The notes below the pieces were generated by a model. It had not been told where the DNA came from and did not search any database. It saw only the letters and a list, made by a program, of their open reading frames with translations. A DNA stretch of 53,799 nucleotides. Source: a virus (taxonomy: Duplodnaviria; Caudoviricetes). The stretch is taken from IMG/VR virus record IMGVR_UViG_3300033067_001170, positions 1 through 53,799 of that record. The stretch is one strand, 5' to 3'. A program made the translations under genes and the position numbers. Shown piece after piece: positions 3,559 through 33,871 of the stretch (positions within the stretch are counted from its first letter, which is position 1; every line of letters starts with the position of its first letter).

Positions 3559-4341
3559 TTAGTTATTGTTTAAATATTCTTCTGTAAATGTTTTAAATCT
3601 TTGTTTCAAAATAACCATATACTTATAGTTTTTACTAGTTGAAAATTCATTTATTTTTTTAAGTGAATTATAAAATATTATTTTATTATCTATAAATGAT
3701 AACCCATGATTTGTTTCACAAATCAAAATAAACGAATTTAAAAATTGTACCCAACTTTTAGTACTCTTTTCATTTATTGCAGATATCAATTCCACTTCTT
3801 CTCTTAATTTTTCTAAAAATCTATTTAGCAATTCCTTCGATAAATTATCATCATCAATAACGTAGGAATGTTTAATGCTGTTTAACACTGTATTATCTTT
3901 AGTTCTAGATTCATCACCATCACCATAAGTATCATTCAAATCCATATCTATAGAAATATGTTTTGCAATTTTATCTGAATACTTTCGTATCTTCTGAATT
4001 AAATATCTTCTAACGGATGTTCCTATATACGCATAAGATTTTTGTCTGGTAACATCATACTTAGGCAACACCGTCTCTATTATATGAACCATACATTGTT
4101 GTTTTATATCTTCTATACCATCATGTTCGAACTTATGCAACTTATATCTATAAACTATACTTTCTATTAGTTTACTTATAGGTTTGTATAAATTCTTCTC
4201 AAATATTATACTTTTCTTAATATAATCTTTTTCTTGGATATAATCAACTATATATTGATCAACAGAATCATCCCAATAATTCTTTTTGGTTTCCGTTTTA
4301 GGAGCATCTATATCATTAGTTGTTTTCAAAAATATCTCCAA
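3559..4341 (-). CDS. Phage sigma factor-like protein (T4 gp55-like late sigma)
   Basis: Sigma region 2-like EDIKQQCMVHIIETVLPKYD...KSYAYIGTSVRRYLIQ. Confidence 0.65.
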   Translation of the reverse strand: MEIFLKTTNDIDAPKTETKKNYWDDSVDQYIVDYIQEKDYIKKSIIFEKNLYKPISKLIESIVYRYKLHKFEHDGIEDIKQQCMVHIIETVLPKYDVTRQKSYAYIGTSVRRYLIQKIRKYSDKIAKHISIDMDLNDTYGDGDESRTKDNTVLNSIKHSYVIDDDNLSKELLNRFLEKLREEVELISAINEKSTKSWVQFLNSFILICETNHGLSFIDNKIIFYNSLKKINEFSTSKNYKYMVILKQRFKTFTEEYLNNN

Positions 4342-25088: not shown

Positions 25089-25189
25089 TTACCGTTATAA
25101 CAGTAATTTATTGTTAATTTAATTAAAATTTAAGATATATACTCAAAATAAACAAATTTTACCGTTATAACAGTAATTTATTGTTAATT
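25089..25189. repeat. 31-bp direct repeat x2 with internal imperfect palindrome
   Basis: TTACCGTTATAACAGTAATTTATTGTTAATT at 25089-25119 and 25159-25189. Confidence 0.9.
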
Positions 25190-28008
25190 CTACTAACAAT
25201 ATCCTTAAATACACTATTATTAGATATAGTATCAGAATCTTTATTATCAACTATCTTATCAATATTATTTTTCTTAGTTTGTATCAATTCAAAAATATCT
25301 TCTTCAATGGTATCCTGAGTAATAAAATATAAAACATTAACAGAAGCATGTTGTCCAATTCTATGTGCTCTATCTTCTGCTTGTGAATGATCAGATGGAG
25401 TCCATAATAAATCTGTAAATATTACAGTATCAGCTTTTGTTAATGTAATTCCTACACCACCAGCAAGAGTTTGTCCTACAAATATTCTAACATCAGGATT
25501 ATTCTGAAAATCATCAACTGCTTTTTGTCTTTGTTCTATAGATACAGAACCAGTTAATTTAACGGCAGTTTTTTTAAATTTAGAAACTATCTTAGATATA
25601 ACGTCAACATATTGTGAAAATATAATTATTTTTCTATTTTCATCTTCTTCCAATAAATCCTGCACCATTTCAAATATCATAGGTAATTTACTGTTAGCAC
25701 AAACTTGTTTTAATAAATTAAGTTTAACCAAATGTTCAGCATATTCTACATTTCTAGTTATAATATTTGCAGTAATGATATCATATTTTTTCTTATTTTC
25801 AGATAAAACATAATCAATATAATTATCAAAAGCATCATCATACACTTTTTTATCATCTGCAGATAATTCAGTATATATTTTAGTAATAATTTTAGGTGGT
25901 AAATCTAAACAGTCATCTTTTAATCTTCTAATCATATAAGGTTTTAGTTCTTTATGTAACTCTTCCTGATTAGAAGAACCGTTAAAATCCCAACCATAAG
26001 TAGTTTGAGTTCCTGCACAATATTTAAGTCCGAAATTAAAAAACCCATTATAAGTTATAGGGTGTTTAATGGCAACTAACAAATTAAATAAATCTTTAGT
26101 TTTAGATTTAACTGGAGTTCCCGATATGGGAACTACAAATCTTACATTACTTGTTAGGTATATTACTACTTTAGTTCGTTTAGAATCATTTTTAATATAT
26201 TGTGCTTCATCTATCAACATACAATCAAATTTTATTTTTGATAAAAATGAATCTTCTTTTATTTCCAAAGTTGTTTTATTTTTTAATGCTTCGTGTTCTT
26301 TAAATTCAAAATGTTTAATTAACATATCATAATTTATAATATAATATTTTGTAAACATATTATGTGTATCTTTTGGTAATACACTTACTTTTGCAGATGG
26401 ATTTACAGTTTTAATCTCTCGTTGCCAATTTATCTTTAATGATGCAGGACAAATTATAAGTATCTTTTCAAAGTTTTGAATCTCTGAATATACTATCGCA
26501 GTTTTAGTATTATGTGTTAAATTAAATCCATCTGTAATAAACAATTCGTCTTTTGAATTTGTAGATATACATATAGCATTATCTTTTTTATAATATTCTA
26601 TATTTTTTATTGCTTTGTATGGTATATATTTAACTTTACGTTTACGTGTAATTAGTTTTCTTTTTAATGTGAACGGTAGTATATCGTCAGGCAATTTTAT
26701 AGTTAGTATATAAAATAATAATCCGTTTTTTATTATACCTTTATATGTATATTTCGGAATTTTTGTTGAAATTGTGACAGTTCCACCCAAAGAATTAATT
26801 AAAAATATAATATCATCTTTTAACTTTTCTGATGTTGTTCCATACTGTAGATTGTGATCTCGTTTTAATGACCACCCATCAGTATCCATAAGTCCTTGTA
26901 ATAATTTAATTCTATCTTGGATATTTGATAGTTTGTATTCTATAGGTATAAATTTAGAATCTGATAATTTATTATATAATCCTAATTTTTTTATTTCTCT
27001 GTTAAATATATTTATATTATTTTTATTTTTATTTTTATTTATGAGCAAATAATCGTATTTAGATGTTTTAATTTTAGACAACGTTATTTCGTTTGGGCAA
27101 AGTTTTTTTATATGTTCAATTATATCAATGTCTGCGGATGAAAATTCTATATACTTTTTGTGGAAATGCCCATCACCCAACAAACATCCCATAATATATG
27201 GGTCTATAACAAATTTATAATTGTTGTTAAAATTTTGTATAGGTTTTATTATAGGAATATACCATTTATTATTTCCATTTTTATATTGTAATGGGGATTC
27301 TCTTAATTCATTAGTGGTTTTAGTTCTATATGGGGAATTTCTGTATCTATGATTAGTTGATTGCACATTCCATAAATGTTCATCACAACAAATAACATTA
27401 GAATTATCTGAAAACGTTATTTTATATAATTCTTTAATTCCTTGCGGAAACACTCCTACAACTTTAGACACTAAACCATCAGAATTTATAATATCATCAT
27501 TTATTTGCAAATCTTTTATATGTACCCACCCATTAGGAGTTAATACTTTAGAATATTCCCATAATGCTTTTCCTGTACCCATATCATTTGCAAGAATAAT
27601 AGAATCAGACTTAGACATAGTTTTAACATCTTCAATTTGATGTTCATATAATCCGTGATATTCTTTTATTCTATCAAAATATTTTTTTAATCGTTCTTGA
27701 CTTTCTTGTTCTTTTTTCTTAAGTTCATCATAGTATGATTTATTTTTAGCTTTAAGAAAGTTTATAAATTTTATTGTTTGATCTTCTGGAAAGAAAGTTA
27801 ATATTTCAGTATATGAATCTAAATCATCTTTTAATGGTCTAAATTCTCCTAATCGGTAGGAAATTTCCCATTCTTTACTTTCAGGTATCCATTTAAATCC
27901 GTGAGATTCTTTCTTAGATTTAAATAATGCTACCAGTTTAGCATCGTATGGTGAAGCAAAATAAACGGATATGTTTACTTTCTTCATTTTATATCTTATA
28001 CTGCTCAT
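25165..28008 (-). CDS. SNF2/SMARCAL1-like helicase containing an intein
   Basis: DMGTGK^T Walker A, DEAQ, SGTP, QAEDRAHRIGQ. Confidence 0.92.
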   Translation of the reverse strand: MSSIRYKMKKVNISVYFASPYDAKLVALFKSKKESHGFKWIPESKEWEISYRLGEFRPLKDDLDSYTEILTFFPEDQTIKFINFLKAKNKSYYDELKKKEQESQERLKKYFDRIKEYHGLYEHQIEDVKTMSKSDSIILANDMGTGKALWEYSKVLTPNGWVHIKDLQINDDIINSDGLVSKVVGVFPQGIKELYKITFSDNSNVICCDEHLWNVQSTNHRYRNSPYRTKTTNELRESPLQYKNGNNKWYIPIIKPIQNFNNNYKFVIDPYIMGCLLGDGHFHKKYIEFSSADIDIIEHIKKLCPNEITLSKIKTSKYDYLLINKNKNKNNINIFNREIKKLGLYNKLSDSKFIPIEYKLSNIQDRIKLLQGLMDTDGWSLKRDHNLQYGTTSEKLKDDIIFLINSLGGTVTISTKIPKYTYKGIIKNGLLFYILTIKLPDDILPFTLKRKLITRKRKVKYIPYKAIKNIEYYKKDNAICISTNSKDELFITDGFNLTHNTKTAIVYSEIQNFEKILIICPASLKINWQREIKTVNPSAKVSVLPKDTHNMFTKYYIINYDMLIKHFEFKEHEALKNKTTLEIKEDSFLSKIKFDCMLIDEAQYIKNDSKRTKVVIYLTSNVRFVVPISGTPVKSKTKDLFNLLVAIKHPITYNGFFNFGLKYCAGTQTTYGWDFNGSSNQEELHKELKPYMIRRLKDDCLDLPPKIITKIYTELSADDKKVYDDAFDNYIDYVLSENKKKYDIITANIITRNVEYAEHLVKLNLLKQVCANSKLPMIFEMVQDLLEEDENRKIIIFSQYVDVISKIVSKFKKTAVKLTGSVSIEQRQKAVDDFQNNPDVRIFVGQTLAGGVGITLTKADTVIFTDLLWTPSDHSQAEDRAHRIGQHASVNVLYFITQDTIEEDIFELIQTKKNNIDKIVDNKDSDTISNNSVFKDIVSRINNKLLL
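26509..27567 (-). mobile_element. Class 3 intein with LAGLIDADG homing endonuclease (353 aa)
   Basis: Starts at Ala (GK/ALWEYS) and ends THN/T; HLW in block B, Cys in block F; CLLGDG and GLMDTDG motifs. Confidence 0.88.
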
Positions 28009-28028
28009 ATATTATTAACTTTTATTTA

Positions 28029-28057
28029 AATATACCTAAATAAAATATATTTGTCAA
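28029..28057 (-). promoter_or_regulatory. Sigma70-type promoter (leftward, divergent pair)
   Basis: TTGACA-17-TATATT on minus strand. Confidence 0.8.
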
Positions 28058-28061
28058 CAAC

Positions 28062-28090
28062 TTGACATTATTATAGAAAAATATTATATT
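28062..28090 (+). promoter_or_regulatory. Sigma70-type promoter (rightward, divergent pair)
   Basis: TTGACA-17-TATATT. Confidence 0.8.
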
Positions 28091-28111
28091 TATATAAGTA
28101 ATTAAAATTAT

Positions 28112-28183
28112 GTCGGGTTCATCTAACGGCTAGGATAGGTGGCTTTCGCCCACCCAATAGGAGTTCGAGTCTCCTACTCGACA
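28112..28183 (+). tRNA. tRNA-Glu(TTC)
   Basis: GTCGGGT/ACTCGAC acceptor; GGTGG-CTTTCGC-CCACC. Confidence 0.9.
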
Positions 28184-28191
28184 CTAAATAT

Positions 28192-28265
28192 CGGGATGTA
28201 GCTCAGCGGTTTAGAGTGCTCCGTTTGGGGCGGAGAAGTCGTGAGTTCGAATCTCACCATCCCGA
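28192..28265 (+). tRNA. tRNA-Pro(TGG)
   Basis: CGGGATG/CATCCCG acceptor; CTCCG-TTTGGGG-CGGAG. Confidence 0.93.
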
Positions 28266-28292
28266 CACTTTTACTAATAGGTTAAATTAATT

Positions 28293-28799
28293 ATGAGTAT
28301 ATCTAATAATGCTTTAATACACATGTTTATTAGTGGATATTATATTGATTTTGTAGGGCATATATACAGTCCAAATAATATACAATTAAAATCATATAAA
28401 AATGGAAAACGAAAACTTAAATATTATACTGTTCCGTATAGATATAATGGTAGACCATGCACAATTAATGTTCATAGATTTATAGGATTATTTAAATTTG
28501 GGAATAAAATTTTTAATAGTGAGTTACAAATAAGACATTTAGATGGAAACAGTTTAAATAATAGTTGGTATAATATAGGTATAGGTACACGATCTCAAAA
28601 TATGATGGATGTTCATGAAAGTATTAGAGTGTGGAGAGCTAAAAGAGCAACATTAAAAACAATAAAATATGATCATGATGATGTTAAAAAATATTATTTA
28701 GAATATGGATATAAAAATACACTAAAACAGTTTAATATATCATCTAAAGGAACATTACATTATATTATAAATAAAAAATCATATAGAAAAGTAAATTAA
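28293..28799 (+). CDS. HNH homing endonuclease (free-standing)
   Basis: VHRFI...IRHLDGNSLNNSWYNI...SQN. Confidence 0.85.
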   Translation: MSISNNALIHMFISGYYIDFVGHIYSPNNIQLKSYKNGKRKLKYYTVPYRYNGRPCTINVHRFIGLFKFGNKIFNSELQIRHLDGNSLNNSWYNIGIGTRSQNMMDVHESIRVWRAKRATLKTIKYDHDDVKKYYLEYGYKNTLKQFNISSKGTLHYIINKKSYRKVN

Positions 28800-28805
28800 A
28801 TTTAT

Positions 28806-28946
28806 GGTTAAAGTAGGTAAAAGCAAACTCGTATAGTTGCTTGGGTTTGTAATAATATCCAAAAATAGAAAACGTCACTACGGCAGTAGTAACAGTCGTG
28901 GAAGGAACAACCTAAAAATTTTATTGAATGATTATTCAGTCAATAA
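28806..28946 (+). ncRNA. Candidate structured ncRNA (unassigned)
   Basis: Non-coding gap with several hairpins (AAGCAA/TTGCTT, CTACGGC/GTCGTGG, TTATTGA/TCAATAA). Confidence 0.3.
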
Positions 28947-28994
28947 GTTAAATATTTTAAGTTAATGAATGAGTTATACTTCAAGGAATAATAA

Positions 28995-29222
28995 ATGTGT
29001 GCAATAGTAGTAATTGGAAATAACCATAGTGCTTTGGGTGATAAACTTCTTGTTACAGTATTAACTGAAAATTATTCAGGTTATATAAGAGACTGTGCAG
29101 ACGATATGATTCTTGAACGAAAATTAAAAGTAAGTGATTATAATATTGTTGCTCAAGAAATTAGGAAAGAAACGTTGAAACAATCTCAACATTGGAAACA
29201 TAAAAATAAACCTAAGTATTGA
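28995..29222 (+). CDS. Hypothetical protein
   Basis: ORF with AAGGA SD. Confidence 0.6.
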   Translation: MCAIVVIGNNHSALGDKLLVTVLTENYSGYIRDCADDMILERKLKVSDYNIVAQEIRKETLKQSQHWKHKNKPKY

Positions 29223-29247
29223 CAAATAGTATTTAATTTAGTATATT
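29219..29247 (+). promoter_or_regulatory. Sigma70-type promoter
   Basis: TTGACA-17-TATATT before tRNA-Met. Confidence 0.8.
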
Positions 29248-29270
29248 TATAAATGATTAAAAATTTTAAT

Positions 29271-29343
29271 GGCGGGATAGAGCAGTTGGTAGCTCGTAAG
29301 CCTCATAAGCTTGAGGTCGCAGGTTCAAGTCCTGCTCCCGCTA
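29271..29343 (+). tRNA. tRNA-Met(CAT), initiator-like D arm
   Basis: GGCGGGA/TCCCGCT acceptor; TAAGC-CTCATAA-GCTTG. Confidence 0.9.
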
Positions 29344-29356
29344 CAAATGTTCATTG

Positions 29357-29604
29357 AAACTATGTGCTGAATACAAACAGTAATTAATCAAATACGGTAA
29401 AACTCCGTCTAACGTGCATATGTGACAGGTTTGGTAATTACAGAATTGCTAAGAATTCGTTGTTTGGGTAAGATGTTGAGTGTTGAAACAAACAGCTTTT
29501 TACTCCTTGAAAAATTTTGCTGTGACAATTATATAACTAATTTATCTATGCTAAATTAGGGTAGAGTAAAACATTCCATACTTAGAAAAATGGACACATA
29601 GTTT
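29357..29604 (+). ncRNA. Candidate large structured ncRNA (unassigned)
   Basis: 10-bp closing stem AAACTATGTG/CACATAGTTT enclosing several internal stems; no ORF in the track. Confidence 0.5.
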
Positions 29605-29618
29605 TTGGGTTTTAAATT

Positions 29619-30002
29619 GGGCTAGAATTTGGCTTCGATTGGTACAACGGAAAGAAATAGTGCAAGTGAGTAAGTTATGACTCTGACAATACAAAGAAAA
29701 TAAGTGCAGAAGAATTATCTTCATTTACTTTCGAGAACGCATTAGCTTTTGTTGGTGCTGACTCGGAAGTAGTATTTGCTTAGTAATAAGTAAACACCAT
29801 CAGGGTTATCATCTGATGTATAGAACAAGGTAACACTTACTAATAAACACCATAAAGTAGTAAGTCGATAATGGTTGACTTTTCAAAGTTCAAAATGAAT
29901 GGAGAGTTTTTTGTTATGTATTTCTTAAAAAAATATAACTAAACTTGTAACGAACTGTGCTGAAAGTATATCAAGACCTGGGTTCGACTCCCAGCTGGTC
30001 CA
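29619..30002 (+). ncRNA. ssrA: tmRNA
   Basis: GGGCTAG/CTGGTCC-A acceptor with G3.U70, TTCGA near 5' end, T arm CTGGG-TTCGACT-CCCAG; tag reading frame 29706-29783 after ATAAGT. Confidence 0.88.
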
Positions 30003-30030
30003 CTAAATAAAAATAATTATTGCAAAGTAG

Positions 30031-30059
30031 TTGACAATAATTAAAATATTTATTATATT
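30031..30059 (+). promoter_or_regulatory. Sigma70-type promoter of the leader/tRNA array
   Basis: TTGACA-17-TATATT. Confidence 0.82.
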
Positions 30060-30081
30060 TATATAAAAGAAAAATAAAACT

Positions 30082-30144
30082 ATGAAAAACACAACCCTTA
30101 CATATTGTCTTCTAACAGGTGCGGATTTAGGAACTAATATCTGA
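30082..30144 (+). CDS. Putative attenuator leader peptide MKNTTLTYCLLTGADLGTNI (20 aa)
   Basis: Short ORF between promoter and terminator; composition mirrors downstream tRNAs; overlaps alternative pairing segments. Confidence 0.7.
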   Translation: MKNTTLTYCLLTGADLGTNI

Positions 30145-30169
30145 AGGGTGTGTATTATAATTTTTAATA

Positions 30170-30205
30170 GAACCCTTTAGATCGTCTAAAGGGTTTTTTT
30201 GTTTT
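30170..30205 (+). terminator. Intrinsic terminator (attenuator 3:4 hairpin)
   Basis: AACCCTTTAGA-TCG-TCTAAAGGGTT followed by a T tract, ending 5 nt before tRNA-Asp. Confidence 0.85.
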
Positions 30206-30209
30206 AAAT

Positions 30210-30282
30210 GGGATAGAGGTGCAGTTGGTAGCACGTTGCCCTGTCACGGCAAAGGTTGTGGGTTCGACTCCCATGTATCCCG
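30210..30282 (+). tRNA. tRNA-Asp(GTC)
   Basis: TTGCC-CTGTCAC-GGCAA; G73; G7:G66 mismatch and A at position 8. Confidence 0.85.
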
Positions 30283-30285
30283 CTT

Positions 30286-30358
30286 GGGTCATTGGTGTAA
30301 TTGGGAGCACAATAGACTTGCACTCTATTAGTATCGGTTCGAATCCGATATGTATCCA
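30286..30358 (+). tRNA. tRNA-Ala(TGC)
   Basis: ATAGA-CTTGCAC-TCTAT; G3.U70; one extra bulged base in acceptor stem. Confidence 0.8.
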
Positions 30359-30362
30359 CATA

Positions 30363-30408
30363 ACAACCTTAAAAGGTTGTAAATAGAAATACAACCTTAA
30401 AAGGTTGT
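30363..30408. repeat. Two copies of near-perfect palindrome ACAACCTTAAAAGGTTGT
   Basis: At 30363-30380 and 30391-30408. Confidence 0.9.
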
Positions 30409-30485
30409 GTGAGTTAATATAACAATAGGACAACGTAATGTTGCTAATAACTTAGTTAAAAAATATTATTAATGTCCTATTAATC

Positions 30486-30558
30486 GTAGTCTTGGTGTTC
30501 AACGGTAGCACGCTCGGCTGTAACCCGACAGGTGGTGGTTCAAATCCATCAGACTACA
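30486..30558 (+). tRNA. tRNA-Tyr(GTA), short variable loop
   Basis: GTAGTCT/AGACTAC acceptor, A73; TCGG-CTGTAAC-CCGA. Confidence 0.82.
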
Positions 30559-30564
30559 CAAAAT

Positions 30565-30644
30565 GCTCTCTTGATGGAATTGGTAGACATGTAACACTTA
30601 GAATGTTATGCTTAGGCGTGAAAGTTCGAGTCTTTCAGAGAGTA
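30565..30644 (+). tRNA. tRNA-Leu(TAG)
   Basis: TAACA-CTTAGAA-TGTTA; variable arm present. Confidence 0.9.
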
Positions 30645-30680
30645 CAATATCATGGACACTTTGTCCATGTATATGTCCAT

Positions 30681-30762
30681 GTTCCTGTGCTGGAACTGGT
30701 AGACAGAACGGACTTAAAATCCGTTGCCTTCGGGCATAAGGGTTCGACTCCCTTCAGGAACA
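30681..30762 (+). tRNA. tRNA-Leu(TAA)
   Basis: ACGGA-CTTAAAA-TCCGT; variable arm TGCCTTCGGGCA. Confidence 0.92.
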
Positions 30763-30768
30763 CAACTT

Positions 30769-30842
30769 GTTCAGATGATGCAATTGGTAGACATGAAAAG
30801 CTCAAACCTTTTCTTTTAAGAGTTCGAGTCTCTTTCTGAACA
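30769..30842 (+). tRNA. tRNA-Leu(CAA), short variable loop
   Basis: GTTCAGA/TCTGAAC acceptor; AAAAG-CTCAAAC-CTTTT. Confidence 0.82.
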
Positions 30843-30846
30843 CTTA

Positions 30847-30875
30847 TTGACTTTTAATTTATAATTGTTTATATT
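30847..30875 (+). promoter_or_regulatory. Sigma70-type promoter
   Basis: TTGACT-17-TATATT. Confidence 0.75.
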
Positions 30876-30897
30876 TAAATAAACATAAAGGATTTAT

Positions 30898-31170
30898 ATG
30901 GCAATAGTAATTTTATTAGTATTATTTGTTATTTGTTTATTAGCATTAACATATGCTTATCAATTATTTGAAGAAGTGGAAAGACTTCAAATAGAGAATA
31001 ATAATTTAAGAGTTAAATTGGGTAAACTTCCGATACCAATTTACAAAGTTAAATTTGAAGATAAGTTTAAGATGTTTATGCAAAAGTCTGTAATTATAGT
31101 TTCCACAAATTTGATAGTTTATCTTAAAGAAATGAAAAAACATTATGAAAGAATGTTGGCAAGAATCTGA
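30898..31170 (+). CDS. Membrane-anchored hypothetical protein
   Basis: N-terminal TM helix; AAGGA SD. Confidence 0.7.
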   Translation: MAIVILLVLFVICLLALTYAYQLFEEVERLQIENNNLRVKLGKLPIPIYKVKFEDKFKMFMQKSVIIVSTNLIVYLKEMKKHYERMLARI

Positions 31171-31345
31171 TAAAGGATTTACAGTATATGTGACTGTGGG
31201 TAAATGGAGTAAACCTAAACTTCATTATGTTCCTAGTAGGCGTTCTGTTAGATTATGTTTGGGATTTATTGCTGTATCTATAGGATTTTTTGATATTGAA
31301 ACTTTTATTGGAAATAGACATAGATATATAATTCATAAAAAATAA
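31145..31345 (+). CDS. Hypothetical protein
   Basis: ORF overlapping previous gene. Confidence 0.55.
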   Translation: MKECWQESDKGFTVYVTVGKWSKPKLHYVPSRRSVRLCLGFIAVSIGFFDIETFIGNRHRYIIHKK

Positions 31346-31348
31346 TAC

Positions 31349-31424
31349 GTAGGTGTGGTGTTTAACGGATTAAGCATGCGTGGCTTCCACCCATGAGGTA
31401 GGGGTTCGAATCCCCTCACCTACT
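31349..31424 (+). tRNA. tRNA-Gly(TCC)
   Basis: GTAGGTG/CACCTAC acceptor, U73; CGTGG-CTTCCAC-CCATG. Confidence 0.9.
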
Positions 31425-31429
31425 CAAAT

Positions 31430-31502
31430 GTTGGGATGTCTGAGCGGTTTTAGGAATAGGTCTGCAAAACCTACTACAAGGGTTCGAATCCCTTTCTCAA
31501 CT
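31430..31502 (+). tRNA. tRNA-Cys(GCA)
   Basis: GTTGGGA/TCTCAAC acceptor, U73; TAGGT-CTGCAAA-ACCTA. Confidence 0.9.
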
Positions 31503-31525
31503 CAAATTAAAATAAAGGAGAAGTT

Positions 31526-31795
31526 ATGCCTGTACGAGTAGTTATGGAAAATAAAGATGATGCTAAGTATATATTAGAAGCATTATTATTCGCTGGGTGT
31601 GTTGATGTTAGTTCTAATTGGAGTGAAAAGGATAGTAAAAAAATTTTAGATTTGGCTAAACGTATGAAAACACAAATAGATGAAAAATCTGCAGATGAAG
31701 TAAAATTATCTAAAATTAAATTGGAAAAACCACCATACGATAATACAGACAATGCTAAGTTAGTTAAAGAAATATTAAAAAGGAAAAAGAAATAA
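31526..31795 (+). CDS. Hypothetical protein
   Basis: AAGGAG SD. Confidence 0.75.
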   Translation: MPVRVVMENKDDAKYILEALLFAGCVDVSSNWSEKDSKKILDLAKRMKTQIDEKSADEVKLSKIKLEKPPYDNTDNAKLVKEILKRKKK

Positions 31796-32232
31796 TGGAA
31801 TTTTTATTGTTAGTTATATATTACATATTTGTTTGTGTAGTATCAGGTATATCAGGTTCGGGTGAAGGGTTAAGAATTTTAAGTGTTACTAATAATTCTA
31901 TAGTGTGGCATAATCAACAATGGATAGAACGAATAGGATTATTCTTATCAGGTGCATTTGCATTGTTATGGTCTGTTTTTAATTCTATAACTATTGATGC
32001 AAATACTATTATAACCTTTAACGTTATAAATATGCTTATATCATTTGTGGTATTATCTGCAACATCTGGAATATTGTTTTTTACTTGGTATGACGGAATT
32101 ATAAATAAGAAATTAAATTATAGTTTTTTTAGAGTATCATTTACAAGTAAAGCAGTTACTGAAGGGTTTGCTCATTGGTATGTTAAAATACCTTTAATAA
32201 TTATATTGTTAGTGTTAAGTTTTTTGTTATAA
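31795..32232 (+). CDS. Multi-pass membrane protein
   Basis: About four hydrophobic helices. Confidence 0.7.
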   Translation: MEFLLLVIYYIFVCVVSGISGSGEGLRILSVTNNSIVWHNQQWIERIGLFLSGAFALLWSVFNSITIDANTIITFNVINMLISFVVLSATSGILFFTWYDGIINKKLNYSFFRVSFTSKAVTEGFAHWYVKIPLIIILLVLSFLL

Positions 32233-32239
32233 TTAAAAT

Positions 32240-32312
32240 GCTAGTGTAACTCAATTGGTAGAGTAGCTGATTTGTAATCAGCCTGTTGGAGGTTCGAGTC
32301 CTCTCATTAGCT
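32240..32312 (+). tRNA. tRNA-Thr(TGT)
   Basis: GCTAGTG/CATTAGC acceptor; GCTGA-TTTGTAA-TCAGC. Confidence 0.92.
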
Positions 32313-32345
32313 CAAAATATTTTATCAAGTAAATTATAGGATTTT

Positions 32346-32696
32346 ATGGAAATAACATTTTTGACTGTTAGTGCTGTATTATTTTCTACTATATTATCAG
32401 ATATAGTGTGGGCATATTATTTTATAAAAGTAGCACAAAAGAAACCGCATCAAGCCGCTTTTTTTGCAATTTTAATAGCATTAAATTCTTCATTCATTAC
32501 AATTTCCTATATAGGAAATATGTACTTTTTAATACCTGTAATTATCGGTTCATATATTGGAACTTATATTGCTGTGAAAAGACATATTAAATATGATAAA
32601 TCAGATGAAGCAATAAAATTATTACAATATGAAATAGAACAATTAGAAACGAGACTTTCAGATATGGAAATTAATTTTAAAAGTAAATATGAGTAA
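32346..32696 (+). CDS. Small membrane protein
   Basis: Three TM helices, GSYIGTY motif. Confidence 0.7.
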   Translation: MEITFLTVSAVLFSTILSDIVWAYYFIKVAQKKPHQAAFFAILIALNSSFITISYIGNMYFLIPVIIGSYIGTYIAVKRHIKYDKSDEAIKLLQYEIEQLETRLSDMEINFKSKYE

Positions 32697-32705
32697 TATA
32701 AAACC

Positions 32706-32734
32706 TTGACATTTATGTAAAAAATTAGTATATT
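32706..32734 (+). promoter_or_regulatory. Sigma70-type promoter
   Basis: TTGACA-17-TATATT before the RNA ligase operon. Confidence 0.8.
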
Positions 32735-32755
32735 GAAATAAAAAATAAATAAGTT

Positions 32756-33871
32756 ATGTTACCATTTAGAATAGAACATTTACAATATCATATAAAACAA
32801 AAGTACGTTTCGGTGCAAAAGCACCCAGAAGCAGAGTTGTATATCTATAACTATACTCAAACAGCACAATTTGATAACATTTGGAATGATGTTACAATGA
32901 ATTGTAGAGGTTTGATCTTAGATAAAGATTACAATATTGTTGCAAGACCATTTAAGAAGTTTTTCAACTATTCTGAACTGCAAGAAAATGCAAATAAAGG
33001 AACTGTTCCTAAAGGTGAATCCCCAATTCTTTTTGATAAGATGGATGGTTCTTTAGGTATAATTTATCCTTTAAATGATAAATTTTATGTTGCCACAAGA
33101 GGTAGTTTTATTTCTGAGCAAGCTATGGTTGCTACAGATATGTTACACAACAAATATGGTTGGAAAGATGTGGGTAATGTTGTTAAAGGTTTAATATACA
33201 ACAAAACAATTTTGTTGGAGATAATTTATCCAGAGAATAAAATAGTTGTAAATTATGGTGACGAATCTAAATTAGTTCAGTTAGCAATAATAGATAATAA
33301 AACTGGAGATTACTATGGAAATCATTTTTTTGGATTTCCTATAGTTCAAAATTATCCTGAATATTCTAATATTCCATTTGATGAATTATCTAAAATGAAC
33401 TTGGAAAATAAAGAAGGATTTGTAGTATTTTATCCTAAATCTAACTTTAGAATGAAAGTTAAATTTGAAGAATATGTTAGACTGCATAGAATAGTTACTA
33501 ATGTTTCCACAAGAACTATATGGGAATATTTAAGAGATGGAAAGTCTATTGATGAAATGATCAATAATGTTCCTGATGAATTTTATGCTTGGGTTAAAAC
33601 TAAAGTATCAGAATTAACTTTACATTTTGCTGATGTTGTTAGAGATTGTCACGATGCATATAAAGATATATTTTCAAGTGTATCTAATATAGTAGATGCT
33701 GTTGAAAGAAAGAAAGCTTTCGCATTAAAGGTTCAGTCTTTATTGGATAAGAAATGTTGGTCGGTTTTATTTAGAATGTATGATAAACGTGATTGTAAAG
33801 ATTTGGTGTGGAAAATAGTAGAACCTAAATTTGAAAGACCGTTCAAGCAAGTAACGGAAGATAGCAATTGA
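32756..33871 (+). CDS. RNA ligase 1 (T4 Rnl1-like)
   Basis: CRGLIL...ARPFKKFFN, KMDGSLG, ATRGSF, EGFVV, KVKFEEY. Confidence 0.9.
   Translation: MLPFRIEHLQYHIKQKYVSVQKHPEAELYIYNYTQTAQFDNIWNDVTMNCRGLILDKDYNIVARPFKKFFNYSELQENANKGTVPKGESPILFDKMDGSLGIIYPLNDKFYVATRGSFISEQAMVATDMLHNKYGWKDVGNVVKGLIYNKTILLEIIYPENKIVVNYGDESKLVQLAIIDNKTGDYYGNHFFGFPIVQNYPEYSNIPFDELSKMNLENKEGFVVFYPKSNFRMKVKFEEYVRLHRIVTNVSTRTIWEYLRDGKSIDEMINNVPDEFYAWVKTKVSELTLHFADVVRDCHDAYKDIFSSVSNIVDAVERKKAFALKVQSLLDKKCWSVLFRMYDKRDCKDLVWKIVEPKFERPFKQVTEDSN

What the first reader, a model, noticed from the sequence alone, without database searches (positions are those of the whole stretch)
30031..30205. Leader-peptide attenuator that appears to sense tRNA availability and gate the phage tRNA array
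Seen: a consensus promoter (30031-30059) is followed by a 20-codon ORF (30082-30144, MKNTTLTYCLLTGADLGTNI) and a strong intrinsic terminator (30170-30205) ending 5 nt before tRNA-Asp. The RNA has trp/his-type alternative pairings. Segment 1 ACACAACCCTT (30089-30099) pairs with segment 2 AAGGGTGTGT (30144-30153). Segment 2 extended, ATCTGAAGGGT (30139-30149, spanning the stop codon), pairs over 11 bp with segment 3 ACCCTTTAGAT (30172-30182) as an antiterminator. Segments 3:4 form the terminator. Leader residues 4-18 (TTLTYCLLTGADLGT) use only T, L, Y, C, G, A and D, and all seven occur. That is exactly the set served by the nine tRNAs downstream (Asp, Ala, Tyr, Leu x3, Gly, Cys, Thr). Several codons are exact cognates (ACA x3, CTA, TTA, GGA). 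Established: in amino-acid operon attenuators a ribosome stalled in the leader frees segment 2 to form the antiterminator, while a ribosome reaching the stop masks it. Inference: this is a multi-tRNA sensor that turns on replacement tRNAs when host tRNAs are uncharged or cut by anticodon nucleases. I know of no described attenuator controlling phage tRNA genes this way. Caveat: Gly, Cys and Thr also lie behind a second promoter at 30847.
Basis: partly seen in the sequence, partly recalled or inferred. Interest (0 to 1): 0.95.

Follow-up and report, generated by a model that had tools for sequence, protein, structure and literature searches.

The report
Attenuator-like leader before phage tRNA genes
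A large uncultured phage places a promoter, a 20-codon reading frame and a switchable terminator directly in front of some of its tRNA genes, which looks like a translation-sensing valve on tRNA production, a control not so far described for tRNA genes.

Summary
A consensus promoter, a 20-codon ORF and the strongest + strand terminator hairpin found in the window lie just upstream of tRNA-Asp. The 1:2, 2:3 and 3:4 pairings are real. The 2:3 antiterminator duplex (-15.9 kcal/mol) was matched by 1 of 2000 shuffles and 0 of 1069 real windows. A ribosome-mask model switches as an attenuator should.

The amino-acid match to the downstream tRNAs is unusual at residue level (15 of 19, P about 1.5e-4). 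It is weaker at codon level (10 of 19, P = 0.017). Both tests are post hoc.

There is new comparative support. An analogous leader ORF, antiterminator and terminator precede tRNA arrays in 20 other viral contigs (12 variants). The frame is kept and one antiterminator pair covaries. This second family is not detectably homologous to the window element.

I found no expression data. One natural variant changes Thr4 to Ile but keeps the RNA pair.

Verdict: probably a translation-coupled attenuator of tRNA transcription (about 0.5). The "exact seven-amino-acid sensor" reading is plausible but unproven (about 0.3). It is a new variant of a known kind.

The parts
30031..30059 (+). Sigma-70-type promoter, TTGACA-17-TATATT
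   Evidence: 11 of 12 matches. One of six promoters of the same design in the window. Three others drive tRNAs directly (Glu, Met, and a TTGACT variant for Asn) and two drive protein genes.
30066..30081 (+). Inferred short A-rich 5' UTR without a Shine-Dalgarno sequence (the transcription start is inferred, not mapped)
   Evidence: The distance from the -10 hexamer to the ATG is 22 nt. It is 20 and 21 nt for the SNF2 and RNA-ligase genes behind the same promoter type.
30082..30144 (+). 20-codon leader ORF, MKNTTLTYCLLTGADLGTNI, stop TGA at 30142-30144
   Evidence: Composition statistics.
30089..30099 (+). Segment 1 (ACACAACCCTT), 5' arm of the long hairpin 1:2
   Evidence: MFE pairing. C30092 pairs with G30150. 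The natural variant C>T keeps a G.U pair.
30139..30153 (+). Segment 2. It pairs with segment 1 (30144-30153) or, as ATCTGAAGGGT (30139-30149, spanning the stop codon), with segment 3.
30169..30182 (+). Segment 3, the terminator 5' arm and also the 3' arm of the antiterminator
   Evidence: The 11-bp 2:3 helix has -13.9 kcal/mol.
30185..30205 (+). Segment 4 (terminator 3' arm) and T-tract T7-G-T4
   Evidence: The 11-bp stem has -13.7 kcal/mol.
30210..30357 (+). tRNA-Asp(GTC) and tRNA-Ala(TGC), the genes certainly behind the terminator
   Evidence: ARAGORN. Rfam 57.2 and 51.3 bits. No promoter-like site lies between 30060 and 30209 on the + strand.
30486..30843 (+). tRNA-Tyr(GTA), Leu(TAG), Leu(TAA), Leu(CAA). 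These may have their own weak promoter at 30441-30469.
31351..31503 (+). Atypical tRNA-Gly(UCC) and tRNA-Cys(GCA), behind promoter 30847-30875 and two small ORFs
   Evidence: Rfam 36.4 bits with anticodon loop CUUCCAC. ARAGORN misses it at default settings and calls Arg(gcg) when relaxed.
32240..32313 (+). tRNA-Thr(TGT), behind the promoter-like site 32206-32233

Best explanation
This is a translation-coupled (leader-peptide type) transcription attenuator placed between an early-type promoter and phage tRNA genes.

Proposed mechanism (inferred):
- RNA polymerase starts near 30066 and a ribosome loads on the SD-less A-rich leader.
- If the ribosome runs quickly to the TGA, it covers segment 2 (30139-30153). 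Segments 3:4 then fold and transcription stops at the T-tract, 4 nt before tRNA-Asp.
- If the ribosome is slowed at codons 1-16, or arrives late, segment 2 is free to pair with segment 3 (11 bp). The terminator cannot form, and the polymerase reads into tRNA-Asp, tRNA-Ala and beyond.
- Poor decoding therefore raises phage tRNA output, and good decoding shuts it off. This is negative feedback.

The codons in the sensing zone encode mainly the amino acids served by the downstream tRNAs. The sensor may therefore be tuned to those tRNA species, but this is the least secure step.

Shown here: promoter, ORF, terminator, the alternative helices and their statistical excess, and a comparable conserved element in other phages.

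Inferred: translation of the ORF, the ribosome-position logic in vivo, and tRNA specificity.
For: 1. Order of parts: promoter, then ORF, then terminator, then tRNA. No promoter-like site lies between 30060 and 30209, so any transcript of tRNA-Asp or Ala must pass the terminator.
2. Three other tRNA units in the window sit about 12-24 nt behind a promoter's -10 hexamer. Only this one has a 150-nt insert.
3. The 2:3 complementarity exceeds chance: -15.9 kcal/mol, 1 of 2000 shuffles and 0 of 1069 real windows. The nascent transcript ending at 30182-30190 prefers 2:3.
4. In the ribosome-mask model, A-site codons 1-15 give 9-11 pairs of 2:3, codon 16 gives 8, and codons 17-21 give 0. The stop codon lies inside segment 2.
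5. The start context is identical to that of two real genes behind the same promoter class.
6. 15 of 19 residues belong to the seven amino acids of the nine downstream tRNAs: P = 1.5e-4 against a baseline of 0.357. At codon level P = 0.017 under strict wobble, 0.0014 if family-box U34 also reads U, and 1.5e-4 under four-way wobble.
7. Analogous elements exist in 20 viral contigs (12 distinct variants). Each has a 29-31-codon ORF, an 8-9 bp antiterminator ending 3-7 nt before the stop, a 10-bp terminator and the same T-tract. Where the contig continues, a tRNA or tRNA-like sequence follows, with arrays of up to 28 called tRNAs.
   - RNAalifold picks the antiterminator as consensus, with one compensatory pair (CG in 9, UA in 2).
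   - The indel is in frame (6 nt), and start and stop are kept in the 11 intact variants.
   - Outside the search pattern, variable columns by codon position are 6/20, 7/20 and 12/21.
8. In relatives from other samples the leader is among the best-kept stretches. The X9 contig has 2 differences in 176 nt at 30024-30199, against 5-7% in the flanks. An X8 contig covering 30093-30284 is identical.
9. Below threshold, the best non-tRNA Rfam matches are all attenuator-type leaders: trpB motif 34.9 bits, His_leader 32.6, PyrR 24.5, Thr_leader 20.2. All are under their gathering scores, so this shows resemblance of architecture only.
Against: - I have no evidence of transcription ends or of translation. 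No listed run is on record as RNA, and only contigs could be laid.
- The residue match was chosen after seeing the data. It needs tRNAs that lie behind further promoter-like sites and protein genes. With only the first cluster (Asp to Leu), 5 of 19 codons match, P = 0.39.
- The identity of tRNA-Gly is not secure.
- The X2 relative has 30092 C>T. This turns Thr4 (ACA) into Ile (ATA) yet keeps the pair with G30150 as G.U. That is what an RNA-only constraint would also allow.
- In the second family, leader codons are not enriched for array-decodable codons: P = 0.12-0.6 in 5 of 6 loci tested, and 0.0028 in one locus where only 19 tRNAs were called. Amino-acid diversity there is at most borderline: 17 types, P = 0.05; 15 types, P = 0.39.
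- Part of that family's peptide conservation was imposed by my own search pattern.
- The window element is not detectably homologous to that family: nhmmer finds no hit at the leader at E up to 10. The support is therefore by analogy.
- Thermodynamically, 2:3 already beats 1:2 in the nascent RNA without any ribosome. The 'no translation' state is therefore uncertain.
Confidence: 0.5

Rival explanations
1. This is an RNA-level switch or a stand-alone small RNA, and the ORF is incidental. The promoter makes a structured RNA of about 135 nt that ends at the terminator. That RNA could be a phage sRNA or a lambda 6S-like short transcript. Read-through into the tRNAs would be set by a protein or RNA factor, for example a phage antiterminator, an RNA-binding protein that stabilises 1:2 or 2:3, or a processive antitermination element. 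Ribosome position would play no part.
For: - Promoter, then a short structured RNA, then a strong terminator with a long U-tail is also the anatomy of sRNA genes and of lambda PR'-tR' (recalled knowledge).
- The RNA folds better than shuffles, z = -3.7.
- A 20-codon open frame after an ATG is not rare at 29% GC. My estimate from the base composition is about 0.18.
- There is no Shine-Dalgarno sequence.
- The natural variant 30092 C>T changes the residue but keeps the base pair.
- Hairpins with similar arms (ACAACCTTAAAAGGTTGT, twice) lie 160-200 nt downstream. This hints at a phage-specific RNA motif.
Against: - The stop codon sits inside segment 2 and the ribosome-mask model gives a clean switch.
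- The start context equals that of real genes.
- The residue bias toward the downstream tRNA set, P = 1.5e-4, has no explanation under this reading.
- In the analogous family the frame, the start, the stop and an in-frame indel are conserved.
- I did not search the window for an antiterminator protein, so none is identified.
Confidence: 0.27
2. This is a constitutive, leaky terminator. The hairpin ends the upstream tRNA-Met and tmRNA unit and damps the strong promoter at 30031. The tRNA-Asp cluster would then receive a fixed low level of read-through. The 2:3 complementarity and the peptide composition would be coincidences.
For: - No terminator-like site lies between the tmRNA 3' end (30003-30005) and 30169.
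- Terminator-like hairpins directly abutting tRNA genes occur elsewhere without any ORF, for example L148 between two tRNA-Ser genes. In all, 3 of 114 tRNAs in distant loci had such a hairpin.
- The same 25-nt terminator occurs in a bacterial genome as an ordinary intergenic terminator.
Against: - The 2:3 duplex was reached by 1 of 2000 shuffles and 0 of 1069 real windows.
- The composition bias.
- Conservation of the whole 176-nt leader in relatives, above that of the flanks.
- The recurrent ORF, antiterminator and terminator design in a second family, with one covarying pair.
Confidence: 0.13
3. The ORF encodes a functional or arrest peptide whose sequence matters, as with TnaC, SecM or ErmCL-type nascent-chain control, or a small protein. 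Codon or tRNA identity would not be what is sensed.
For: In the second family several residues never change across the 11 intact variants: T5, H6, D23, I24 and R28 outside the search pattern, and FT.CSKWAEV inside it.
Against: - Other positions in that family change freely among unrelated residues: position 2 is R, I, K or T, and position 25 is C, A, R or S.
- Much of the conserved block was imposed by the search pattern and overlaps an RNA hairpin.
- The window peptide shares no detectable similarity with that family.
- There is no PHROG family at E up to 1.
Confidence: 0.1

Closest known systems
Leader-peptide transcription attenuators of amino-acid operons (trp, his, thr, leu, pheA and pheST of Proteobacteria; Rfam His_leader RF00514, Thr_leader RF00506)
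   Same: A promoter-proximal short ORF. Mutually exclusive helices 1:2, 2:3 and 3:4. An intrinsic terminator before the regulated genes. A stop codon placed so that a terminating ribosome masks segment 2.
   Different: - The regulated genes are tRNAs, not biosynthetic enzymes or a synthetase.
- There is no run of one regulatory codon. Seven amino acids are mixed instead.
- The setting is a phage.
- Scores are below the Rfam gathering thresholds: 32.6 against 49, and 20.2 against 55. It is not a member of those families.
T-box riboswitches
   Same: A terminator/antiterminator switch that reports on tRNA status.
   Different: T-boxes bind uncharged tRNA directly through a specifier loop and a T-box bulge, and they are 200-300 nt long (recalled). 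No T-box match appeared at E up to 1. This leader is about 140 nt and contains an ORF.
Leader ORF plus terminator elements in front of tRNA arrays in 20 IMG/VR contigs (found here, loci L162, L165-L167, L169, L170, L172-L185)
   Same: An A-rich SD-less 5' UTR. A short ORF starting ATGA. The antiterminator segment lies in the last codons. A 10-11 bp terminator is followed by TTTTTTTGTTT, then a tRNA or tRNA-like sequence within a few nt in the intact copies.
   Different: - There is no significant sequence similarity to the window element (nhmmer).
- The ORF is 29-31 codons with 15-17 amino-acid types.
- The arrays hold up to 28 called tRNAs.
- The upstream motif TATCTTTG resembles the Bacteroidota -7 promoter box (recalled). 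The window instead uses TTGACA/TATATT.
Lambda PR'-tR' (6S RNA) with Q antitermination, and HK022 put RNA
   Same: A strong promoter followed after 130-200 nt by a strong terminator that must be overcome to express downstream genes.
   Different: Those systems need a Q-binding element and pause site, or a put RNA fold (recalled). Neither was tested here. They do not involve an ORF whose stop overlaps the antiterminator.

Membership tests
Leader-peptide (ribosome-mediated) transcription attenuator, as a mechanistic class | A short ORF just downstream of the promoter, with a usable start | tested here: met
   The ORF is 30082-30144. Its ATG lies 22 nt after the -10 hexamer, in the same SD-less A-rich context as two real genes. 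Translation itself is not shown.
Leader-peptide (ribosome-mediated) transcription attenuator, as a mechanistic class | An intrinsic terminator between the leader and the regulated genes | tested here: met
   An 11-13 bp stem plus T-tract at 30169-30205. tRNA-Asp starts at 30210.
Leader-peptide (ribosome-mediated) transcription attenuator, as a mechanistic class | Mutually exclusive antiterminator (2:3) and anti-antiterminator (1:2) pairings, beyond chance | tested here: met
   For 2:3, 1 of 2000 shuffles and 0 of 1069 real windows reach the observed energy. For 1:2, 38 of 1000 shuffles do.
Leader-peptide (ribosome-mediated) transcription attenuator, as a mechanistic class | The stop codon is placed so that a terminating ribosome masks segment 2, and regulatory codons are placed so that a stalled ribosome frees it | tested here: met
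   Mask model: codons 1-16 allow 2:3 and codons 17 to stop abolish it. This is a model, not a measurement.
Leader-peptide (ribosome-mediated) transcription attenuator, as a mechanistic class | The leader is enriched in codons whose decoding reports on the regulated product | tested here: inconclusive
   Residue level: 15 of 19, P = 1.5e-4. Strict-wobble codon level: 10 of 19, P = 0.017. First cluster only: 5 of 19, P = 0.39. All tests are post hoc. The X2 variant has Ile at codon 4.
Leader-peptide (ribosome-mediated) transcription attenuator, as a mechanistic class | Read-through responds to charged-tRNA supply and needs leader translation | not testable with these tools
   No RNA holder was listed and only contigs could be laid.
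Rfam His_leader RF00514 / Thr_leader RF00506 / trpB motif RF04312 | Score at or above the family gathering threshold | tested here: not met
   32.6 against 49, 20.2 against 55, and 34.9 against 59 bits.
T-box riboswitch | A match to the T-box covariance model | tested here: not met
   No T-box match at E up to 1 in 27900-32800 or in 30060-31428.
tRNA-array leader family found here (L165 / L162 type) | Sequence homology to the family profile | tested here: not met
   nhmmer --max with an HMM of 11 members against the window gives no hit at the leader at E up to 10. MAFFT can align the two, but that is not evidence of homology.
tRNA-array leader family found here (L165 / L162 type) | Same architecture and position: ORF with the antiterminator segment at its 3' end, then a terminator with T-tract, directly 5' of the first tRNA | tested here: met

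The most novel reading that the evidence does not exclude
Large phages carry a class of ribosome-mediated attenuators that feed translation capacity back onto transcription of their own tRNA genes. The leader's codon repertoire would be tuned to the tRNA repertoire it gates: seven amino-acid types here, and 15-17 types in front of arrays of about 20 tRNAs. Replacement tRNAs would then be switched on when host tRNAs are scarce, uncharged or cleaved by anticodon nucleases.
Probability: 0.3. Interest if true: 0.9.

Novelty: new variant of a known kind. Interest (0 to 1): 0.74.

Why it matters
Phage tRNA genes are currently discussed as codon-usage helpers and as counter-measures to tRNA-cleaving defence systems. 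That view comes from the titles and abstracts listed. How their expression is controlled is largely unknown.

A ribosome-sensing valve in front of tRNA genes would be the first attenuator whose output is tRNA itself. It would close a direct feedback loop between decoding capacity and tRNA supply.

The second family found here covers 20 contigs. It gives a set of natural variants on which the idea can be tested at once with reporter constructs or coupled in vitro systems.

Five literature searches (listings only, plus passages of PMC2965389) returned no description of attenuation of tRNA genes. Subscription journals, including the older T4 and T5 tRNA papers, were not searchable.

Tried and rejected
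- Close relatives for covariation. blastn of 29600-30900 against GenBank phages found only tRNA pieces. RNA-ligase-based locus searches gave at most 44% (viral) and 47% (metagenome) protein identity. Exact patterns for tRNA-Asp and for the terminator found nothing in viral contigs. No sequence-level covariation test of the window leader itself was therefore possible.
- Expression. No RNA holder was listed. Runs X4-X7 are labelled RNA-Seq but are probably DNA. X4 barely covers the leader and only contigs were served. Nothing can be said about transcript ends.
- Terminator in a bacterial genome. The 25-mer matches Mesoflavibacter zeaxanthinifaciens. There it is an ordinary intergenic terminator, with no flank similarity and no tRNA. 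I rejected it as a host clue. About 60% of long ORFs in the window have SD-like motifs, which argues against a Bacteroidota host (the last step is recalled knowledge).
- Homology of the window leader to the second family. MAFFT aligns them but nhmmer finds nothing. I did not build a covariance model, because the two differ in where segment 2 lies.
- Codon-level and diversity tests in the second family were not significant.
- PHROGs has no family for the three peptides at E up to 1. blastn of the L165 leader against GenBank phages gave no match.
- crashed on script errors and were rerun.
- In one search my ORF coordinates for L078 were one base off. The masks are still valid within 1 nt, and the correct frame was used from then on.
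- Supplementary files of papers were not consulted (closed).
Full report
**What the window is.** It is an IMG/VR virus record of 53,799 bases, estimated 25% complete. GC content is about 29%, and transcription switches strand near 28000.

The + strand from 28100 to 32313 is a tRNA region. In order it holds:
- tRNA-Glu and tRNA-Pro;
- an HNH-endonuclease ORF;
- tRNA-Met;
- a tmRNA (29619-30005, Rfam 70.6 bits);
- the element under study;
- tRNA-Asp and tRNA-Ala;
- two identical hairpins;
- tRNA-Tyr and three tRNA-Leu;
- two small ORFs;
- an atypical tRNA-Gly and tRNA-Cys;
- two ORFs;
- tRNA-Thr;
- one ORF;
- a T4 Rnl1-type RNA ligase (Pfam RNA_lig_T4_1, E = 2e-18).

**The observation.**
- The promoter TTGACA-17-TATATT (30031-30059) scores 11 of 12. 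It belongs to a set of six promoters of the same design.
- Two of these, plus a TTGACT variant in front of tRNA-Asn, drive tRNAs that start about 12-24 nt after the -10 hexamer.
- Two others drive the SNF2 helicase and the RNA ligase through 20-21 nt A-rich leaders without a Shine-Dalgarno motif.
- The 20-codon ORF starts 22 nt after its -10 hexamer, in the same kind of context. The missing Shine-Dalgarno sequence is therefore no argument against translation. About 60% of long ORFs elsewhere in the window do have an SD-like motif.
- In a perfect-stem scan, the terminator hairpin was the only + strand hairpin of 8 bp or more followed by a T-run in the whole window. No promoter-like site lies between it and the ORF. 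Transcription of tRNA-Asp and tRNA-Ala must therefore read through it.

**RNA structure.**
- The full leader folds into a long hairpin (segments 1:2, enclosing most of the ORF) plus the terminator. The energy is -34.7 kcal/mol, z = -3.7, with 0 of 200 shuffles as good.
- When the transcript is cut at 30182-30190, before segment 4 is out, the minimum-energy fold switches to the 11-bp 2:3 helix (-20.0 kcal/mol). The 1:2 fold of the transcript ending at 30170 has -18.1.
- The 2:3 helix (-13.9) and the 11-bp terminator stem (-13.7) are equally stable.
- The best duplex between the upstream RNA and the terminator 5' arm is -15.9 kcal/mol. Only 1 of 2000 dinucleotide shuffles, and 0 of 1069 real 100-nt windows of the same phage, reach it.
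- Hairpin 1 alone is less remarkable: 38 of 1000 shuffles fold as well.
- I masked a 30-nt ribosome footprint at each codon. A-site codons 1-15 leave 9-11 pairs of 2:3, codon 16 leaves 8, and codons 17 to stop leave none. This is the geometry of a classical attenuator. It is a model only.

**Peptide composition.**
- Residues 4-18 use only T, L, Y, C, G, A and D.
- Among 404 small ORFs in six frames, the next-longest run in that set is 8.
- A less hand-picked statistic is 15 of the 19 residues after Met, against a baseline of 0.357 in the phage's long ORFs. This gives P = 1.5e-4.
- 200 of 77,520 possible seven-residue sets (0.26%) would score as well.
- At codon level the picture is weaker. Under standard wobble the nine downstream tRNAs read 10 of 19 leader codons (baseline 0.274, P = 0.017). 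If U34 of family boxes also reads U, they read 13 of 19 (P = 0.0014). Under four-way wobble they read 15 of 19 (P = 1.5e-4).
- With only the first cluster (Asp to Leu), the match is 5 of 19, P = 0.39.
- The set was chosen after seeing the data. It needs tRNAs that lie behind promoter-like sites at 30441, 30847 and 32206. It also needs a tRNA-Gly that ARAGORN misses or calls Arg(gcg) when relaxed. The Rfam alignment gives a canonical anticodon loop CUUCCAC.

**Natural variants.** Contigs of four public runs were laid on 29000-33000.
- A 5187-nt contig of X2 is colinear with the window. Its listed differences in the element are:
  - 30052 A>G, in the promoter spacer;
  - 30092 C>T;
  - 30183 C>A, in the terminator loop.
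- 30092 C>T turns codon 4 from ACA (Thr) into ATA (Ile). It keeps the pair with G30150 as G.U (pairing).
- Not all differences were printed, so the list may be incomplete.
- A 3123-nt contig of X9 has 2 differences in 176 nt over 30024-30199, against roughly 5-7% in the flanks. The 155 nt that hold tRNA-Asp and tRNA-Ala are reported there as 'same length, diverged'.
- An X8 contig covering 30093-30284 is identical to the window.
- The element is therefore under purifying selection. The single informative substitution fits an RNA constraint at least as well as a codon-identity constraint.

**A second family.**
- How it was found. Among 114 tRNAs in distant RNA-ligase-linked loci, 3 had a terminator-like hairpin within 60 nt upstream. 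One of them, L078, showed a 31-codon ORF inside a long hairpin (z = -4.1). A segment near the ORF's end pairs with the terminator 5' arm at -16.4 kcal/mol, matched by 1 of 2000 shuffles.
- How it was extended. A pattern made from the shared T-tract and tRNA start found relatives of this element in front of tRNA arrays. A degenerate pattern for ten residues of its peptide then found 20 contigs with 12 distinct variants.
- Architecture. In the 11 intact variants, seven have a called tRNA-Ala(TGC) or an uncalled tRNA-like sequence starting within about 10 nt of the T-tract. The other four have the same GGGC start there, but I did not check it to full length, and one contig ends there. Up to 28 called tRNAs follow. 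The twelfth variant (L174/L176) is degenerate: its C-terminus is changed and it has no T-tract.
- Helices. All 11 intact variants keep a 10-bp terminator (-13.7 to -17.1 kcal/mol). All keep an 8-9 bp or longer antiterminator (-15.6 to -17.7) that ends 3-7 nt before the stop codon.
- Covariation. RNAalifold takes the antiterminator as the consensus structure, with one compensatory pair (CG in 9, UA in 2). That change is a synonymous TCC/TCT Ser codon in the ORF.
- Coding signal. Start and stop are kept and the only indel is 6 nt, in frame. Variable columns by codon position are 6/30, 8/30 and 16/30. Outside the stretch fixed by my search pattern they are 6/20, 7/20 and 12/21. This points to translation, though not strongly.
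- Limits. Leader codons in this family are not enriched for codons read by the arrays, because the arrays already read 55-87% of the codons in those loci's long ORFs. Amino-acid diversity is at most borderline. The family has no PHROG family at E up to 1 and no match in GenBank phages. It is not detectably homologous to the window element.

**Reading.** Taken together, 'short translated ORF, antiterminator and terminator directly in front of phage tRNA genes' is a recurrent, selected design. The window carries a clear instance of it.
- The most likely mechanism is ribosome-mediated attenuation. A ribosome that reaches the stop in time blocks the antiterminator, so transcription ends. A delayed ribosome lets 2:3 form, so the tRNA genes are transcribed. 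I put this at about 0.5.
- Whether the leader is tuned to exactly the tRNA species behind it is open. The contrast between this phage (seven amino-acid types in the leader core, seven downstream) and the second family (15-17 types in front of arrays covering 18-20 types) goes in the predicted direction. It is only two lineages, and only the first is significant on its own.
- The link to anticodon nucleases is inference.
- The rivals are set out in their own sections: an RNA or factor-dependent switch or an sRNA, a leaky insulator, and a sequence-specific arrest peptide.

**Comparison with known systems.** It works like the trp, his and thr leader-peptide attenuators. It is not a member of those Rfam families, because all scores fall below the gathering thresholds. 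It is not a T-box, because no match appeared.

Five full-text searches found no report of attenuation of tRNA genes, in phages or cells. For some searches I saw listings with the start of each abstract. For one search I saw passages of PMC2965389. That paper surveys attenuators and has no occurrence of 'tRNA gene', 'tRNA operon' or 'phage' in its main text. Older T4 and T5 tRNA-cluster papers in subscription journals could not be searched, and supplements were closed.

I therefore rate it a new variant of a known kind.

Noticed in passing
window 29619-30005 (+): A phage-encoded tmRNA (Rfam 70.6 bits against a gathering score of 47). ARAGORN predicts an unusual tag ending ...SEVVFA. It sits 26 nt upstream of the leader's promoter. 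Contigs of the second family also carry a tmRNA (L176, L177).
   Followed up: partly
window 30363-30380 and 30391-30408 (+): Two identical 18-nt hairpins, ACAACCTTAAAAGGTTGT, between tRNA-Ala and tRNA-Tyr. Their arms resemble segments 1 and 2 of the leader (ACACAACCCTT / AAGGGTGTGT). They may be processing or protein-binding sites. Neither has a T-run on the + strand.
   Followed up: partly
window 25165-28008 (-): An SNF2-family helicase interrupted by an intein-like insert (a LAGLIDADG_3 match and a weak Hint match). It is transcribed divergently from the tRNA region, from the same promoter type.
   Followed up: partly
window 31145-31345 and 31526-31795 (+): Two small ORFs inside the tRNA region are presence/absence polymorphisms. 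31166-31344 is skipped in contigs of runs X2, X8 and X9, with TTA in its place. 31523-31793 is skipped in X2. X9 also has 92 extra letters between the tmRNA and the promoter (30006-30024).
   Followed up: no
window 32756-33871 (+): A T4 Rnl1-type RNA ligase lies directly after the tRNA region. This is the enzyme class that repairs nuclease-cut tRNAs in T4 (recalled). It has hundreds of relatives at 35-47% identity in large uncultured phages.
   Followed up: partly
loci L165-L167, L169, L170, L172-L185, L162 (for example L165:4444-4648): A conserved 29-31-codon ORF (consensus M.R.TH..SFT.CSKWAEV.DI.MSRG..) with antiterminator and terminator, in front of phage tRNA arrays in 20 IMG/VR contigs. 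The conserved upstream TATCTTTG resembles the Bacteroidota -7 promoter box (recalled). In several contigs the first tRNA after it (anticodon loop with TGC) is not called by ARAGORN.
   Followed up: yes
L180 (oriented as) about 11559: ARAGORN calls a tRNA with anticodon CTA ('Pyl'), that is, a possible amber-suppressor tRNA. It lies at the end of a 28-tRNA array. This hints at TAG recoding in that phage.
   Followed up: no
L163:3046-3070 (Mesoflavibacter zeaxanthinifaciens scaffold): The window's terminator hairpin matches here at all 24 specified bases of the 25-nt search pattern (one loop base was left free), as an ordinary intergenic terminator in a marine flavobacterium. The flanks are unrelated and no tRNA is nearby. 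It is probably coincidence between AT-rich terminators.
   Followed up: yes
window 30651-30691 (+): The hairpin CATGGACACTTTGTCCATG, followed by a further copy of TGTCCATG, lies between tRNA-Leu(TAG) and tRNA-Leu(TAA).
   Followed up: no
L148 about 3600-3635: A strong hairpin with a T10 run sits 6 nt before the second of two tRNA-Ser genes, with no ORF. Terminator-like hairpins abutting tRNA 5' ends therefore also occur without a leader.
   Followed up: no
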